Source: a virus
Taxonomy: Duplodnaviria > Heunggongvirae > Uroviricota > Caudoviricetes
Direction: 5' to 3' (one strand)
DNA length: 15,265 nucleotides
IMG/VR virus record: IMGVR_UViG_2526164632_000028
In this document: piece by piece, positions 4,529 to 14,636 of the stretch
Layout of the letters: each line of letters begins with the position of its first letter
How positions within the stretch are numbered: position 1 is the stretch's first letter
Position numbers and translations under genes: made by a program
The notes under the pieces: model-generated
What the model saw: the letters and a program-made list of their open reading frames with translations, nothing else
Databases searched by the model: none
What the model was told of the DNA's origin: nothing

Positions 4529-4586
4529 AAAAAGGGCGGCAGAGCAGTCACGGAGTAAAACTGATACCGCCAAACGTCACCAGAAA
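4529..4586 (-). ncRNA. dicF: DicF small regulatory RNA (ftsZ-targeting sRNA processed from the dicB operon transcript)
   Basis: Minus-strand sequence TTTCTGGTGACGTTTGGCGGTATCAGTTTTACTCCGTGACTGCTCTGCCGCCCTTTTT matches my recollection of E. coli DicF, ending in a GC stem plus U-tract. Located just upstream of dicB as in Qin. Exact ends are uncertain by a few nt. Confidence 0.7.
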
Positions 4587-12547: not shown

Positions 12548-12685
12548 ATGAAAAACGCATTGCAGTTTTTGTTTGTTGCGTTCTGGTTGTTCGCATCATG
12601 TATGCCCATCATCTTCACAGCAAGGTATATGGAAAAAGTTGATGTTTTGATATTAATGTTTGGACATATAAATGCCCTTTTTTAG
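12548..12685 (+). CDS. hypothetical 45-aa hydrophobic peptide (candidate small membrane protein or toxin)
   Basis: ATG 12548 with SD AGGGGG 5-8 nt upstream; MKNALQFLFVAFWLFASCMPIIFTARYMEKVDVLILMFGHINALF. Below the 60-aa cutoff of the ORF table. In an AT-rich intergenic stretch upstream of the hok locus. Confidence 0.4.
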   Translation: MKNALQFLFVAFWLFASCMPIIFTARYMEKVDVLILMFGHINALF

Positions 12686-12928
12686 GGGTGTTCATGGCGG
12701 TCATGTGCATTGAATACTGGCGGTAAATACAGCGAACGCCATTGGTTTAGTTGGATATTTACTGTGCCGGACAAAAACGGTTTGCGGGGAAATCTTAGTT
12801 AAGTAGAATGACTGCGGGTGCTTGAGGCTATCTGTCTCAGGCATGAACACCAAAAGGCAGATAGAGAAAAGCCCCAGTTAACATTACGCGTCCTGCAAGA
12901 CGCTTAACATTAATCTGAGGCCATATCT

Positions 12929-12988
12929 ATGCGACACATAGAGATTAGCCTCTTACGGACCGAAAGGTCAAGGAGAAGCAGGCTATGA
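12929..12988 (+). CDS. mok-like leader ORF coupled to hok (19 codons)
   Basis: ATG 12929 with SD GAGG 9 nt upstream; MRHIEISLLRTERSRRSRL; its TGA (12986-12988) overlaps the hok ATG (12985-12987). Confidence 0.4.
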   Translation: MRHIEISLLRTERSRRSRL

Positions 12989-13140
12989 AGCAGCAAAAGG
13001 CGATGTTAATCGCCCTGATCGTCATCTGTTTAACCGTCATAGTGACGGCACTGGTAACGAGGAAAGACCTCTGCGAGGTACGAATCCGAACCGGCCAGAC
13101 GGAGGTCGCTGTCTTCACAGCTTACGAACCTGAGGAGTAA
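12985..13140 (+). CDS. hokD: Hok-family type I toxin (HokD/RelF-like)
   Basis: 51-aa ORF MKQQKAMLIALIVICLTVIVTALVTRKDLCEVRIRTGQTEVAVFTAYEPEE, recognised as Hok/Gef family. Followed by a 9-bp-stem GAAA hairpin (13148-13169) and a terminator. In Qin, hokD lies next to rem and ydfU, as here. Confidence 0.85.
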   Translation: MKQQKAMLIALIVICLTVIVTALVTRKDLCEVRIRTGQTEVAVFTAYEPEE

Positions 13141-13210
13141 GAGACCAGGCGAGGGAGAAATCCCTCGCCACCTCTGATGAGTCAGGCATCCTCAACGCAC
13201 CCGCACTTAA

Positions 13211-13234
13211 CCCGCTTCGGCGGGTTTTGTTTTT
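13211..13234 (+). terminator. rho-independent terminator of the hok transcript
   Basis: CCCGC-ttcg-GCGGG stem-loop followed by TTTTGTTTTT. Confidence 0.65.
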
Positions 13235-13306
13235 CCTGGCATTCTGGTTTACAATTCGCACGTCAGCCTGAACACCTGACACCTGCTGCGCCAGCAGAGA
13301 AAACAG

Positions 13307-13579
13307 ATGGTGCACAAAACCAAATTTCACAATTCTGATACCGACCTTGCCATCCGGCATGGGCGGCGTTCACACGCATTTAAAACCGACTGGTACCAAC
13401 ACCCACCATGTACTGAAGAACAGGCCGAATGGCTAATTCATAACTACCGCAGACGCGGATACGAGATTAAGAAAGCCCTCAGCCTCGATTATCGTCACTG
13501 GATAATCTATGTCAGGCTCCCTTATTCCGAACGCCCACCGCGTCCGTCCCGCACATTCCAGCAACGCATCTGGAGGTAA
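13307..13579 (+). CDS. rem: Rem-like small basic protein
   Basis: 90-aa ORF MVHKTKFHNSDTDLAIRHGRRSHAFKTDWYQHPPCTEEQAEW... between hok and the ydfU-like gene, as in Qin; its stop overlaps the SD of the next gene. Named by position and size only. Confidence 0.5.
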   Translation: MVHKTKFHNSDTDLAIRHGRRSHAFKTDWYQHPPCTEEQAEWLIHNYRRRGYEIKKALSLDYRHWIIYVRLPYSERPPRPSRTFQQRIWR

Positions 13580-13580
13580 C

Positions 13581-14636
13581 GTGCGGGTATTACTTCGACC
13601 TGTTCCGGTACCGGAACTTGGGCTGGTGGTGCTAAAACCGGGCCGTGAATCCATGCAGGTATTTCATAACCCTCGAGTTCTGGTGGAGCCGGAACCGAAA
13701 AGCATGCGCGGTCTGCCGTCCGGAGTCGTTCCTGCTGTTCGCCAGCCGCTGGCGGAGGATAAATCATTACTGCCATTTTTCAGCGATGAGCGGGTGATTC
13801 GTGCTGCTGGTGGTGCTGGTGCATTGTCTGACTGGCTGTTACGCCACATTAAATCCTGCCAGTGGCCTCATGGTGACTACCATCACAGTGAAACCGTCAT
13901 ACATCGTTACGGTACCGGCGCGATGGTGTTGTGCTGGCACTGCGACAACCAGCTGCGTAACCAGACTTCCGAATCACTCGGGCAGCTTGCTCACCAAAAC
14001 CTGTCAGCATGGATGATTGATGTCATCCGCCACGCAATGAATGGCACGCAGGAGCGGGAATTATCGCTGGCTGAATTATCCTGGTGGGCAACCATAAATA
14101 ACGTAGCGGACGCACTACCGGAGACGGTGTTACGTCGTTCACTGGGATTACGCGCGGAAAAAATTCGCTCAGTATACCGCGAGAGCGACATCGTGCCGGG
14201 AGAGCAGACCGCCACCAGCATGCTGAAGCAGCGCACAAAAAATATTGCGCTACTGCCTCACGCCCACCAGCAAAACCCGCCACAGGAAAAGACGGTGGTA
14301 AGCATTGCCGTTGATCCGGAGTCACCGGCTCAGTATCTCCAGCGCCAGAAACCACGACGGGAAGAGATGCCTGTATACACGCGTTGGGTAAAAACGCAGA
14401 AATGCATGACGTGTGGTAATCAGGCAGATGATCCGCATCACATCATTGGTCATGGACTGGGAGGGATGGGAACAAAGGCTGATGATTTGTTTGTTATTCC
14501 GCTGTGCCGTAAATGCCATAGCGAACTACACGCCGGGGTAAAAGATTTTGAAGAAAAACACGGCAGCCAGCTGTTGTTGCTGATTCGTTTTTTAATGCAC
14601 GCGAGAAATTCGGGTGTCCTGAAGTGGAAAGCATGA
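13581..14636 (+). CDS. ydfU: YdfU-like DUF968 protein with HNH-like zinc-finger motifs
   Basis: GTG 13581 with SD GGAGG 4 nt upstream (tabulated ORF starts at ATG 13509, no RBS). Motifs CWHCDNQ and CMTCGNQADDPHHIIGHGLGG...CRKCHSELH. Stop TGA is immediately followed by the rusA ATG. Confidence 0.75.
   Translation: MRVLLRPVPVPELGLVVLKPGRESMQVFHNPRVLVEPEPKSMRGLPSGVVPAVRQPLAEDKSLLPFFSDERVIRAAGGAGALSDWLLRHIKSCQWPHGDYHHSETVIHRYGTGAMVLCWHCDNQLRNQTSESLGQLAHQNLSAWMIDVIRHAMNGTQERELSLAELSWWATINNVADALPETVLRRSLGLRAEKIRSVYRESDIVPGEQTATSMLKQRTKNIALLPHAHQQNPPQEKTVVSIAVDPESPAQYLQRQKPRREEMPVYTRWVKTQKCMTCGNQADDPHHIIGHGLGGMGTKADDLFVIPLCRKCHSELHAGVKDFEEKHGSQLLLLIRFLMHARNSGVLKWKA

What the first reader, a model, noticed from the sequence alone, without database searches (positions are those of the whole stretch)
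12900..13234. hok-type type I toxin locus with an unusually short mok whose stop overlaps the hok start
The Hok toxin ORF (12985-13140) is preceded by a 19-codon mok-like ORF ending in ATGA overlap with the hok start, and followed by a perfect 9-bp-stem GAAA hairpin (13148-13169) and an intrinsic terminator (13211-13234). In the plasmid R1 system mok is much longer and spans most of hok, so this would be a compact coupling variant. The Sok antisense RNA and its promoter could not be located with confidence. The ORF table misses hok entirely because it is under 60 aa.
Basis: partly seen in the sequence, partly recalled or inferred. Interest (0 to 1): 0.5.

Follow-up and report, generated by a model that had tools for sequence, protein, structure and literature searches.

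The report
Prophage hok/sok toxin locus, minimal mok
This is an ordinary, complete hok/sok toxin-antitoxin locus (the intact form of E. coli hokD) in a lambdoid prophage; its one unusual trait is a rare but widespread allele whose regulatory leader reading frame (mok) is cut to 19 codons and stops exactly on the toxin's start codon.

Summary
The locus is a canonical hok/mok/sok type I toxin-antitoxin module in an E. coli lambdoid prophage. Hok is 100% identical to K-12 HokD and 92% identical to the experimentally validated HokW.

The leader matches Rfam RF01794 (106.7 bits). The predicted full-length mRNA closes by 5'-3' (tac-fbi) pairing, and both Shine-Dalgarno (SD) sequences are masked by helices.

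Its 3' 53 nt match the annotated sokW of phage 933W except for one base.

The 19-codon leader ORF starts at the positional homologue of the annotated mokW, mokC and mokB starts. R1 mok also has 19 codons before the hok start. Only the phase differs:
- 56 nt start-to-start here
- 57 nt in mokW and mokC (in frame, a 70-aa fusion ORF)
- 58 nt in R1, mokB and Rac mok (overlapping ORF)

Across about 100 distinct leaders, the stop-on-start phase occurs only in this allele lineage and in one Shigella hokB-like locus. The allele itself is common in E. coli, and 18 of 18 copies in distinct contexts keep both ORFs intact.

The shift lies in a hypervariable hairpin that forms the Sok recognition region. 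Published R1 genetics show that mok translation past the hok start is dispensable, so function is probably preserved. This is a known system with a minor, apparently unreported variant. Interest is low to moderate.

The parts
12782..12809 (+). Putative hok mRNA promoter: -35 TTGCGG (12782-12787), 16-nt spacer, -10 TAGAAT (12804-12809), 6 nt before the mRNA start.
   Evidence: Position inferred from the mRNA 5' end. The -10 is conserved at a fixed distance from GGGTGC in diverged loci: TAGAAT, TACAAT, TATAAT and TAGGAT in alignments A1 and A2. It is too weak for the consensus scan, which found no promoter.
12816..13232 (+). Full-length hok mRNA (about 417 nt), from the tac 5' end to the terminator.
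   Evidence: The Rfam RF01794 model starts at 12816. MFE is -173 kcal/mol with z = -8.6. 96.2% of pair cells are standard pairs across 86 relatives, and 23 pairs show changes on both sides against 6.7 expected from shuffles.
12816..12827 (+). tac element (GGGTGCTTGAGG), the 5' end that pairs with fbi in the full-length mRNA.
   Evidence: 12-bp helix with 13190-13202 in the MFE structure. It is 100% paired in 86 sequences but mostly invariant (helix 1).
12871..12881 (+). ucb-like box (GCCCCAGTTAA) that masks the mok Shine-Dalgarno in the full-length fold.
   Evidence: Pairs with 12910-12921 (TTAATCTGAGGC) in the MFE structure. Helix 4 is 99.3% paired, with 3 pairs changed on both sides.
12867..12937 (-). 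Sok antisense RNA (about 71 nt): a 5' recognition tail complementary to the mok start codon and Shine-Dalgarno, then a long terminator-like hairpin and a U-tail.
   Evidence: Collinear with the annotated sokW of phage 933W. The 3' 53 nt are identical except for 1 base, and the 5' 18 nt differ. The 5' end lies 8 nt past the mok A, as for sokW and sokC. The fold is -31.7 kcal/mol with z = -5.2.
12942..12971 (-). Putative Sok promoter: -35 TTGACC (12971-12966), 18-nt spacer, -10 TAATCT (12947-12942).
   Evidence: Positional homologue of the regions upstream of the annotated sokW, sokC and sokB. It falls below the threshold of the consensus scan. Its activity is inferred.
12917..12920 (+). mok Shine-Dalgarno (GAGG).
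   Evidence: G113, A114, G115 and G116 of alignment A1 are invariant in 86 sequences. It lies 8 nt upstream of the ATG.
12929..12988 (+). mok-equivalent leader ORF, 19 codons plus TGA. The stop overlaps the hok start as ATGA.
   Evidence: Translation confirmed. The ATG is invariant in 86 of 86 relatives. It aligns with the annotated mokC, mokB and mokW starts. 18 of 18 copies in distinct contexts keep the ORF intact.
12920..12947 (+). Hypervariable Sok-target hairpin (stem 12926-12931 with 12937-12942, loop CGACA). It is the specificity region of the hok/Sok pair, and indels here help set the mok phase.
   Evidence: Mean column entropy is 0.67-0.86 bits here against mostly under 0.2 bits over the hok ORF and 0.1-0.5 bits in the rest of the leader. 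About 24 alleles occur among 82 loci with identical Hok. Phase follows the length combinations of the modules.
12948..12979 (+). Helix that masks the hok Shine-Dalgarno: GCCTCTT (12948-12954) pairs with GAGAAGC (12973-12979). It encloses the GACC-GAAA-GGTC hairpin (12958-12969). The hok SD, AAGGAG, is at 12970-12975.
   Evidence: MFE structure. Helix 6 is 100% paired in 86 sequences. The inner hairpin shows compensatory alleles, TGCC/GGCA versus GACC/GGTC.
12985..13140 (+). hok toxin gene (51 aa).
   Evidence: Pfam HOK_GEF at 82.9 bits. 100% identical to K-12 HokD and 92% identical to HokW. RefSeq annotates it as hokD.
13148..13169 (+). 3'-UTR hairpin with a 9-bp stem and GAAA loop. It is the likely stop point of 3' exonucleolytic processing, by analogy with R1.
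   Evidence: MFE structure. Helix 16 is 99% paired, with 2 pairs changed on both sides. The role in processing is inferred.
13190..13202 (+). fbi element (CCTCAACGCACCC), complementary to tac.
   Evidence: Pairs with 12816-12827 in the MFE structure and is 100% paired in relatives.
13209..13236 (+). Intrinsic terminator of the hok mRNA.
   Evidence: The terminator scan found a 7-bp stem with 5 GC pairs, a TTCG loop and a T-run.

Best explanation
This is a complete hok/mok/sok type I toxin-antitoxin module of the prophage hokD/hokW type. It sits in the nin-like region of an E. coli lambdoid prophage.

Proposed mechanism, by homology to R1 hok/sok and Sp5 hokW-sokW:
1. A weak constitutive promoter makes a roughly 417-nt hok mRNA. 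Pairing of its 5' end (tac) with its 3' end (fbi) locks it shut. In this form the mok SD is paired with an upstream box and the hok SD is paired with the invariant GCCUCUU.
2. Slow 3' trimming back to the 13148-13169 hairpin removes fbi and activates the mRNA.
3. The unstable cis-antisense Sok RNA (12937 to 12867) then pairs with the mok start region and blocks it.
4. If Sok is lost, ribosomes start at the mok ATG (12929) and translate 19 codons straight through the helix that masks the hok SD. They terminate at the UGA embedded in the hok AUG.
5. Hok is then translated, either by a freshly bound ribosome on the opened SD or by termination-reinitiation. Hok kills or lyses the cell.

The 19-codon leader is therefore a natural minimal mok. 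It differs from other alleles only in phase (56 nt against 57 or 58 nt). Two length differences set that phase. One is a 2-nt shorter Sok-target hairpin. The other is which length version of the small hairpin inside the hok-SD-masking helix the allele carries: the 13-nt one here, 12 nt in most 57-nt alleles.

Shown here: all sequence elements, their conservation and their predicted structure. Inferred: transcription, processing, coupling and toxicity.
For: - Family identity: Rfam RF01794 at 106.7 bits and Pfam HOK_GEF at 82.9 bits. Hok is identical to K-12 HokD and 92% identical to HokW. RefSeq annotates hokD in 99.7-99.8% identical prophages.
- Structure: the MFE fold reproduces tac-fbi closure, ucb-SDmok pairing and hok SD masking, with z = -8.6. 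These helices are 99-100% paired in 86 relatives, and covariation exceeds both controls.
- Sok: collinear with the annotated sokW and identical at 52 of its 3' 53 nt. It has the expected tail, hairpin and U-tail shape.
- mok: the ATG and its GAGG are invariant inside a hypervariable island and align with the annotated mokC, mokB and mokW starts.
- R1 genetics (PMC9841398, section 18): mutations of the mok start codon, and stop codons upstream of the hok start, abolish toxicity. Translation beyond the hok start is not needed.
- hokW-sokW is an experimentally proven toxin-antitoxin pair (PMC8621323).
- Allele health: the 91-nt leader is at least 99% identical in up to 712 E. coli records, and 18 of 18 copies in distinct contexts keep both ORFs intact.
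Against: - There are no expression data for this allele. The consensus promoter scan found no sigma-70 site on either strand.
- The MFE fold of a 3'-truncated mRNA did not free the mok SD, so the refolding step is not reproduced in silico.
- The stop-on-start phase is rare across the family: about 6% of distinct leaders, from essentially one lineage. That could mean it is disfavoured.
- Chromosomal hok loci are often reported as inactive (reviewed in PMC8309996 and bioRxiv 10.1101/2025.08.07.668861).
- In R1, some changes next to the hok SD block Hok synthesis for unknown reasons (PMC9841398). Equivalence of the three phases is therefore not guaranteed.
Confidence: 0.72

Rival explanations
1. 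Attenuated or silent allele. The 2-nt shorter target hairpin knocked mok out of its usual phase. Ribosomes now stop on the hok start, and Hok is made poorly or not at all. The locus persists as a hitch-hiking, largely inert remnant, like many chromosomal hok loci.
For: The stop-on-start phase is rare: 3 of 36 hokD-type haplotypes, 1 of 30 in the species sample and 3 of 42 in the metagenome sample. All copies of the window-type (56-nt) leader share one hairpin allele, so they have a single origin. The R1-like frame is still open for 63 codons but has lost its start, which looks like a recent shift. Chromosomal hok loci are frequently non-functional (PMC8309996; bioRxiv 10.1101/2025.08.07.668861).
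Against: The allele is common and spread over many prophage contexts. It shows no decay: 18 of 18 copies keep both ORFs intact, and tac, fbi, both SDs, Sok and the terminator are all intact. R1 data say translation past the hok start is dispensable (PMC9841398). AUGA overlaps are a classical efficient coupling arrangement (general knowledge).
Confidence: 0.18
2. The leader ORF is irrelevant. Hok is translated directly from its own strong SD (AAGGAG, 9 nt before the ATG) once the mRNA refolds. The upstream ATG is conserved for RNA-structure or Sok-pairing reasons rather than for translation.
For: The hok SD is a near-consensus AAGGAG at good spacing. 6 of 30 hok leaders from other species have no ATG, GTG or TTG at the mok position. 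Phase is not conserved.
Against: The hok SD is held in a helix that is 100% conserved. The ATG and GAGG stay invariant while their pairing partners vary, which structure alone does not explain. R1 mok start-codon mutants lose toxicity (PMC9841398).
Confidence: 0.07
3. There is no autonomous module. The region is transcribed only by read-through from the prophage early-right operon, and there is no active Sok promoter.
For: The promoter scan found nothing on either strand. All upstream genes are on the same strand.
Against: The -10 hexamer is conserved at a fixed 6-nt distance from the conserved GGGTGC 5' end, even in loci with unrelated upstream flanks such as hokC and hokB. The Sok promoter hexamers here are no worse than those upstream of the annotated sokC. 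hokW mRNA and sokW RNA are detected in uninduced lysogens (PMC8621323).
Confidence: 0.03

Closest known systems
hokW-mokW-sokW of Stx2 phages 933W / Sakai Sp5 (NC_000924.1; Takada et al. 2021, PMC8621323)
   Same: It is a prophage-borne hok/sok module with 91% nucleotide identity over the locus. Hok is 92% identical. The mRNA architecture is the same. Sok is identical at 52 of its 3' 53 nt. It has been shown experimentally to be a type I toxin-antitoxin pair.
   Different: mokW starts 57 nt before hokW and is in frame, giving a 70-aa ORF that shares the hokW stop. Here the distance is 56 nt, giving a 19-codon ORF that ends on the hok start. The 5' 18 nt of Sok, the recognition tail, differ at 7 positions. 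The position within the prophage also differs.
hokD (relF) of the E. coli K-12 Qin prophage
   Same: Hok is 100% identical. The 3' UTR and the downstream neighbourhood are the same: a small ORF at the position of rem (no detectable family match), then DUF968 and RusA.
   Different: K-12 keeps homology only from window position 12971 onward. relBE replaces the whole leader, so K-12 has no tac, ucb, mok or sok. The window carries the intact form.
hok/mok/sok (parB) of plasmid R1
   Same: All named elements are shared: tac, fbi, ucb, mok SD, Sok target hairpin, masked hok SD, 3' hairpin and terminator. Both have 19 mok codons upstream of the hok start (PMC9841398).
   Different: In R1 the starts are 58 nt apart, so mok runs 70 codons overlapping hok in another frame. 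The Hok proteins are 41% identical. R1 is a plasmid and its module has a plasmid-maintenance role.
hokC/mokC/sokC (gef) and hokB/mokB/sokB of E. coli K-12
   Same: They have the same leader architecture, and their mok starts align with window 12929. The Sok 5' end lies 8-10 nt inside mok.
   Different: mokC is in frame at 57 nt (69 aa). mokB is at 58 nt (55 aa). They are chromosomal rather than prophage loci.
Shigella flexneri hokB-like locus (L222, CP182556.1)
   Same: It is the only other leader found in the stop-on-start phase: 59 nt, 20 codons ending in ATGA.
   Different: It belongs to a different hok subfamily and arose independently, by a 1-nt insertion relative to E. coli hokB. It may be a decaying copy.

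Membership tests
[quoted passage not shown] | Small Hok/Gef-family membrane toxin ORF | tested here: met
   Pfam PF01848 at 82.9 bits against a cutoff of 22. 100% identical to K-12 HokD.
[quoted passage not shown] | Long structured hok mRNA leader homologous to the family model | tested here: met
   Rfam RF01794 at 106.7 bits against a gathering score of 59, matching the full model 1-157 over 12816-12987.
[quoted passage not shown] | 5'-3' end pairing (tac-fbi) that locks the full-length mRNA | tested here: met
   A 12-bp helix between 12816-12827 and 13190-13202 in the MFE structure. It is 100% paired in 86 relatives but mostly invariant, so covariation support is weak.
[quoted passage not shown] | Leader ORF (mok) with its own SD that starts inside the Sok target and is translated at least up to the hok initiation region | tested here: met
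   GAGG at 12917-12920 and ATG at 12929, both invariant. The ORF crosses the hok SD helix and ends at 12988. It is the positional homologue of the annotated mokW, mokC and mokB starts. Translation itself was not tested.
[quoted passage not shown] | mok reading frame that extensively overlaps hok | tested here: not met
   The overlap is only 4 nt (ATGA). R1 genetics show this feature is dispensable (PMC9841398), and it already varies among annotated members. I therefore treat it as descriptive rather than defining.
[quoted passage not shown] | cis-encoded antisense Sok RNA covering the mok initiation region, with its own promoter and terminator hairpin | tested here: met
   The minus strand 12937-12867 is collinear with the annotated sokW. 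The hairpin plus U-tail fold has z = -5.2. Promoter hexamers TTGACC and TAATCT lie at homologous positions. Expression cannot be tested with these tools.
[quoted passage not shown] | hok SD sequestered, so that hok translation depends on mok translation | tested here: met
   12948-12954 pairs with 12973-12979 and is 100% paired in 86 sequences. This shows the structure only. The dependence on mok is inferred.
[quoted passage not shown] | Toxicity of Hok, neutralisation by Sok, and 3' processing of the mRNA | not testable with these tools
   K-12 HokD, which is identical in sequence, was used as a toxic control in bioRxiv 10.1101/2025.08.07.668861. HokW is toxic and sokW is protective (PMC8621323).

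The most novel reading that the evidence does not exclude
The 19-codon leader is a fully functional natural minimal mok that couples hok to its own translation purely by termination-reinitiation at AUGA. More broadly, the mok-hok reading phase is an evolutionarily free variable, with all three phases occurring among alleles that encode the same or nearly the same Hok. The phase is flipped as a by-product of indels in the fast-evolving Sok-specificity hairpin and of a 1-nt length difference in the hairpin next to the hok SD. The rarity of the stop-on-start phase would then reflect a quantitative effect on Hok output rather than loss of function.
Probability: 0.45. Interest if true: 0.4.

Novelty: new variant of a known kind. 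Interest (0 to 1): 0.3.

Why it matters
The locus itself is textbook biology and is already annotated as hokD in thousands of E. coli genomes.

The modest added value is comparative. Alleles encoding the same or nearly the same toxin carry the mok leader in all three reading phases relative to hok. This one shows the minimal case, 19 codons with the stop on the hok start.

That is a natural counterpart to the R1 mutagenesis result that only translation up to the hok initiation region matters. It argues that the Mok peptide has no function of its own. It also offers ready-made isogenic-like material for measuring how overlap, in-frame fusion and termination-reinitiation coupling affect toxin output.

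There are two practical consequences:
- Annotation pipelines miss mok and sok for this allele.
- Mok cannot be predicted by looking for a long ORF that overlaps hok. A recent survey explicitly left Mok identification open (bioRxiv 10.1101/2025.08.07.668861).

Tried and rejected
- **Promoter scan.** The consensus sigma-70 scan of 12650-13330 found no promoter on either strand. The promoters given here therefore rest on positional homology only.
- **Truncated mRNA fold.** I folded a 3'-truncated mRNA (12816-13185) to see the activating refolding step. The MFE structure kept the mok SD paired with ucb and formed only a 5' tac hairpin. The tac-ucb switch of the R1 model is not reproduced by thermodynamic prediction, so this is inconclusive.
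- **Protein-alignment search.** I replaced it with DNA pattern scans. Those scans require GCCTCTTAC...AAGGAG...ATGAA, so they are biased toward leaders that keep these motifs.
- **Co-resident alleles.** I tested whether hok loci in the same genome always carry different Sok-recognition alleles. Only two genomes were informative: one pair was identical and one pair differed. This is inconclusive.
- **Alternative long mok.** I looked for an N-terminally extended Hok or a long mok from another start in this window. The hok frame is closed at 12946 and the R1-like frame has no start codon, so this is rejected.
- **Literature.** Searches found no description of mok phase variation or of a stop-on-start mok. 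The pre-2000 Gerdes-lab papers are not in the searchable library, so prior mention cannot be excluded.
- **Statistics.** I ran no formal test on the rarity of the stop-on-start phase, because the leaders are not phylogenetically independent.
Full report
**1. Observation**

- The Hok ORF runs 12985-13140 on the + strand, 51 aa.
- Upstream, ATG 12929 opens a 19-codon ORF (MRHIEISLLRTERSRRSRL). Its TGA at 12986-12988 is embedded in the hok start as ATGA.
- A GAGG Shine-Dalgarno (SD) sits at 12917-12920, 8 nt before that ATG.
- Downstream there is a perfect 9-bp hairpin with a GAAA loop at 13148-13169.
- An intrinsic terminator follows, with its stem at 13209-13226 and then a T-run.
- No alternative long leader ORF exists here. 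The hok frame is closed by TAG at 12946. The frame that R1 mok would use is open from 12942 to 13133 but contains no ATG, GTG or TTG.

The unit begins at about 12782 (promoter) and 12816 (mRNA 5' end).

**2. What it is**

Several lines of evidence identify a hok/sok locus.
- Rfam family RF01794, which in practice models the hok mRNA leader, matches 12816-12987 on the hok strand over its full length at 106.7 bits, E = 7.5e-24.
- The protein matches Pfam HOK_GEF at 82.9 bits.
- The protein is 100% identical to K-12 HokD. It is 92% identical to HokW of the Stx2 phages and 41% identical to R1 Hok.
- The 481-nt region has matches in 4951 of 5426 complete E. coli genomes and is annotated there as hokD.

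The window as a whole is a lambdoid prophage. Its gene order is int, xis, exo, dicB, DicF, ydfC, cI-like repressor, cro, ydaT, replication genes, nin-like small genes, hokD, DUF968, rusA, DUF1133. It is 99.7-99.8% identical to prophages in E. coli FDAARGOS_1059 and O111:H2 strain 12A.

K-12 hokD in the Qin prophage shares homology only from window position 12971 onward. There relBE replaces the entire leader. The window therefore holds the intact form of the locus that K-12 keeps only as a stump.

**3. Anatomy of the mRNA**

The 417-nt transcript 12816-13232 folds to -173 kcal/mol, with z = -8.6 against shuffles. The predicted structure reproduces the published architecture of the full-length R1 hok mRNA (summarised in PMC9841398):
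- The 5' end GGGUGCUUGAGG (tac, 12816-12827) pairs with CCUCAACGCACCC (fbi, 13190-13202).
- The mok SD region (12910-12921) pairs with an upstream box GCCCCAGUUAA (ucb-like, 12871-12881).
- The hok SD region (GAGAAGC, 12973-12979) pairs with the invariant GCCUCUU (12948-12954).
- The hok start region (12980-12994) pairs with the end of the hok ORF (13108-13123).

I tested this structure on an alignment of 86 distinct relatives. 96.2% of pair cells are standard pairs, against 35-43% when partners are slid by 1-3 columns. 23 pairs show changes on both sides, against 6.7 ± 1.8 in shuffles. The tac-fbi and hok-SD helices are 100% paired but almost invariant, so they are consistent with the structure rather than proven by covariation.

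**4. Sok**

It can be placed by homology.
- Phage 933W (NC_000924.1) annotates mokW, hokW and a 71-nt sokW. In Sakai prophage Sp5, the hokW-sokW locus has been shown to be a type I toxin-antitoxin pair. sokW RNA was detected by Northern blot, and inactivating its promoter unleashes HokW toxicity (PMC8621323).
- The collinear stretch here is the minus strand from 12937 to 12867. Its 3' 53 nt are identical to sokW except for one loop base, and its 5' 18 nt differ.
- It folds into a short 5' region, a long hairpin and a U-tail, at -31.7 kcal/mol with z = -5.2.
- Its 5' end lies 8 nt inside the leader ORF, exactly as for sokW and K-12 sokC.
- Upstream on that strand are TTGACC, an 18-nt spacer and TAATCT, at the positions homologous to the regions upstream of the annotated sokW, sokC and sokB. 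The hexamers are at least as good as those of sokC.
- The generic promoter scan does not call them, nor does it call the hok promoter TTGCGG/TAGAAT. Promoter activity is therefore inferred.

**5. The short mok in context**

The leader ATG is invariant in 86 of 86 relatives, together with its GAGG. Yet it sits inside the most variable stretch of the locus: column entropy is 0.67-0.86 bits at 12920-12937. Over the hok ORF it is mostly below 0.2 bits, and in the rest of the leader it is 0.1-0.5 bits.

The ATG aligns with the annotated starts of mokC, mokB and mokW. R1 mok also has exactly 19 codons before the hok start, with the mok AUG at 116-118 and the hok AUG at 174-176, 58 nt apart (PMC9841398, section 18). 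So the upstream part is not shortened. Only the phase differs.

Phases among annotated relatives:

| Locus | Start-to-start distance | Consequence | Call |
|---|---|---|---|
| 933W mokW | 57 nt | in frame with hokW, same stop, 70 aa | 42 |
| K-12 mokC | 57 nt | in frame, 69 aa | 33 |
| K-12 mokB | 58 nt | overlapping ORF, 55 aa | 34 |
| phage Rac mok | 58 nt | overlapping ORF, 68 aa | 43 |
| plasmid R1 mok | 58 nt | overlapping ORF, 70 aa | PMC9841398 |
| this window | 56 nt | stop on the hok start, 19 codons | 60 |

Because Hok proteins begin Met-Lys (ATGAAR), any leader in this third phase must stop at the TGA inside ATGA.

**6. How rare, and how it arose**

| Sample | Distinct leaders | 57 nt | 58 nt | Stop-on-start phase | Other |
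|---|---|---|---|---|---|
| IMG/VR, hokD-type | 36 | 30 | 3 | 3 (56 nt, this allele) | none |
| One genome per species | 30 | 8 | 14 | 1 (59 nt, 20 codons; Shigella flexneri hokB-like) | 1 at 60 nt; 6 with no canonical start |
| Metagenome contigs | 42 | 14 | 22 | 3 (56 nt, all this allele) | 3 with no canonical start |

The stop-on-start phase is therefore rare. It is confined to one allele lineage plus one independent case. These counts are not phylogenetically independent, and the pattern scans are biased toward leaders that keep the conserved motifs.

The allele is nevertheless successful.
- The 91-nt leader is at least 99% identical in up to 712 E. coli records.
- It makes up 11 of 80 IMG/VR loci with identical Hok.
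- All 18 copies found in distinct contexts keep both ORFs intact.

The phase depends on the lengths of three short stretches of the leader:
- the Sok-target hairpin after the ATG, which is 20 or 18 nt;
- a single A before GCCTCTTAC, which is present or absent;
- the small hairpin next to the hok SD, which is 12 or 13 nt (TGCC-GAAA-GGCA or GACC-GAAA-GGTC, a compensatory pair of alleles).

The combinations give these phases:
- 20 nt, A present, 12 nt: 57 nt
- 20 nt, A present, 13 nt: 58 nt
- 20 nt, A absent, 13 nt: 57 nt
- 18 nt, A present, 13 nt: 56 nt (this window)

The window allele looks like a 58-type leader whose target hairpin was remodelled and shortened by 2 nt. The orphaned R1-like frame still reads almost the same as the Rac mok product.

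The remodelled stretch is the region complementary to the 5' tail of Sok. In the family it is the recognition and specificity determinant. About 24 alleles occur among 82 loci that encode the same Hok. The 2-nt shortening that sets this allele apart thus looks like a by-product of diversification of the hok/Sok recognition sequence. This is an inference.

**7. Most likely mechanism**

By homology with R1 and hokW-sokW, I propose the following sequence of events.
1. A weakly but constitutively made mRNA is held inactive by tac-fbi closure.
2. 3' trimming back to the 13148-13169 hairpin activates it.
3. Sok then binds the mok initiation region and blocks it. RNase III cleaves the duplex.
4. When Sok decays, for example on prophage induction as shown for sokW in PMC8621323, ribosomes load at the mok SD.
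5. They translate 19 codons through the helix that masks the hok SD (codons 7-10 read AGC CUC UUA CGG) and terminate on the UGA that overlaps the hok AUG.
6. Hok is then initiated, either by reinitiation or on the opened SD.

R1 genetics support the sufficiency of such a leader. Mutations of the mok start codon, and stop codons upstream of the hok start, abolish toxicity. Stop codons downstream of the hok start do not (PMC9841398).

What is shown here is the presence, conservation and predicted structure of every element. Transcription, processing, coupling and killing are inferred. I put 0.72 on this explanation.

**8. Rivals**

- **The stop-on-start phase lowers or abolishes Hok synthesis, so the allele is attenuated (0.18).** The rarity of this phase and the frequent inactivity of chromosomal hok loci favour it. 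The abundance and intactness of the allele count against it.
- **hok is translated independently of the leader (0.07).** The strong hok SD favours it, as do the few relatives that have no canonical start at the mok position. The conserved masking helix, the invariant ATG and GAGG, and R1 genetics count against it.
- **The region is transcribed only by read-through, with no active Sok (0.03).** The conserved -10 at a fixed distance from the conserved 5' end, even in unrelated contexts, counts against it. So does the detection of hokW and sokW RNAs in uninduced lysogens (PMC8621323).

**9. Comparison and novelty**

The locus works like hokW-mokW-sokW, hokC/mokC/sokC and R1 hok/mok/sok, and it is a member of that family. 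The only R1 descriptor it fails is 'mok extensively overlaps hok'. That feature is known to be dispensable and already varies among annotated members, so I do not treat it as defining.

The toxin gene is already annotated. The mok and sok of this allele are not. I found no paper that describes phase variation of mok or a stop-on-start mok. The most recent survey explicitly set Mok identification aside as non-trivial (bioRxiv 10.1101/2025.08.07.668861). The older Gerdes-lab papers are not in the searchable library, so prior mention cannot be excluded.

My verdict is a known system with a small, real and apparently unreported architectural variant. Interest is 0.3.

Noticed in passing
window 4534-4585 (-): A DicF small RNA matches Rfam RF00039 at 76.7 bits over the full model. 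It lies beside dicB and ydfC, the known prophage cell-division-inhibitor operon. This marks the element as a Qin/Rac-like lambdoid prophage.
   Followed up: no
L004, L008, L019 and others; L205 (933W) 749-961; L202 (K-12) 352-561: In most hokD/hokW-type alleles the leader ATG is 57 nt upstream of hok and in frame with it. Ribosomes starting there would make a 70-aa Mok-Hok fusion carrying the whole toxin. This ORF is annotated as mokW and mokC. I did not find any test of whether the extended protein is made or is toxic.
   Followed up: partly
window 12920-12947 (both strands): There is a hypervariable island inside an otherwise highly conserved locus, with about 24 alleles among 82 loci that encode the identical Hok. 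It corresponds to the 5' recognition tail of Sok and to mok codons 1-6, which suggests diversification of toxin-antitoxin specificity. A check of alleles that share a genome was inconclusive: one identical pair and one different pair.
   Followed up: partly
window 13123-13128 (+): TACGAA (the Tyr47 codon plus GAA) is invariant in all 86 aligned relatives, including a divergent Hok. It matches the UACG motif targeted by the TadA A-to-I editing enzyme. Tyr-to-Cys recoding at the equivalent position is reported for hokC, hokD and hokE mRNAs (introduction of bioRxiv 10.1101/2025.08.07.668861).
   Followed up: no
window about 13182-13361 (-): RefSeq annotates a 59-aa 'hypothetical protein' (WP_001112732.1) on the strand opposite the hok 3' UTR, fbi, terminator and the start of the next gene. 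It is probably a spurious call.
   Followed up: no
L001 10233-12821 (E. coli FDAARGOS_1059): In a 99.8% identical prophage, an IS679 (IS66-family) element is inserted about 180-220 bp upstream of the hok mRNA start. It is another case of an insertion sequence next to a hok locus, like IS186 next to K-12 hokC.
   Followed up: no
L214, L228, L288, L291, L292, L305 (genome contigs); L367, L399, L407 (metagenome): Several hok loci in other Enterobacterales have an intact Hok ORF and a conserved leader but no ATG, GTG or TTG at the mok position. The aligned site carries CTG, ACG, ATA or ATT instead. Either non-canonical starts are used or these copies are translationally silent.
   Followed up: no
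L222 (Shigella flexneri CP182556.1): A hokB-like locus carries a 1-nt insertion relative to E. coli hokB. This puts the leader ATG 59 nt upstream, so a 20-codon leader also ends on the hok ATGA. It is the only independent second case of the stop-on-start phase that I found.
   Followed up: partly
window 13307-13579 (+) and 13509-14636 (+): A 90-aa ORF with no Pfam or NCBIfam match sits where K-12 Qin has rem. It runs into the DUF968/HNH-like gene (a ydfU homologue). The ORF listing gives the latter a start at 13509, which overlaps the 90-aa ORF, whereas RefSeq starts it right after that ORF.
   Followed up: no
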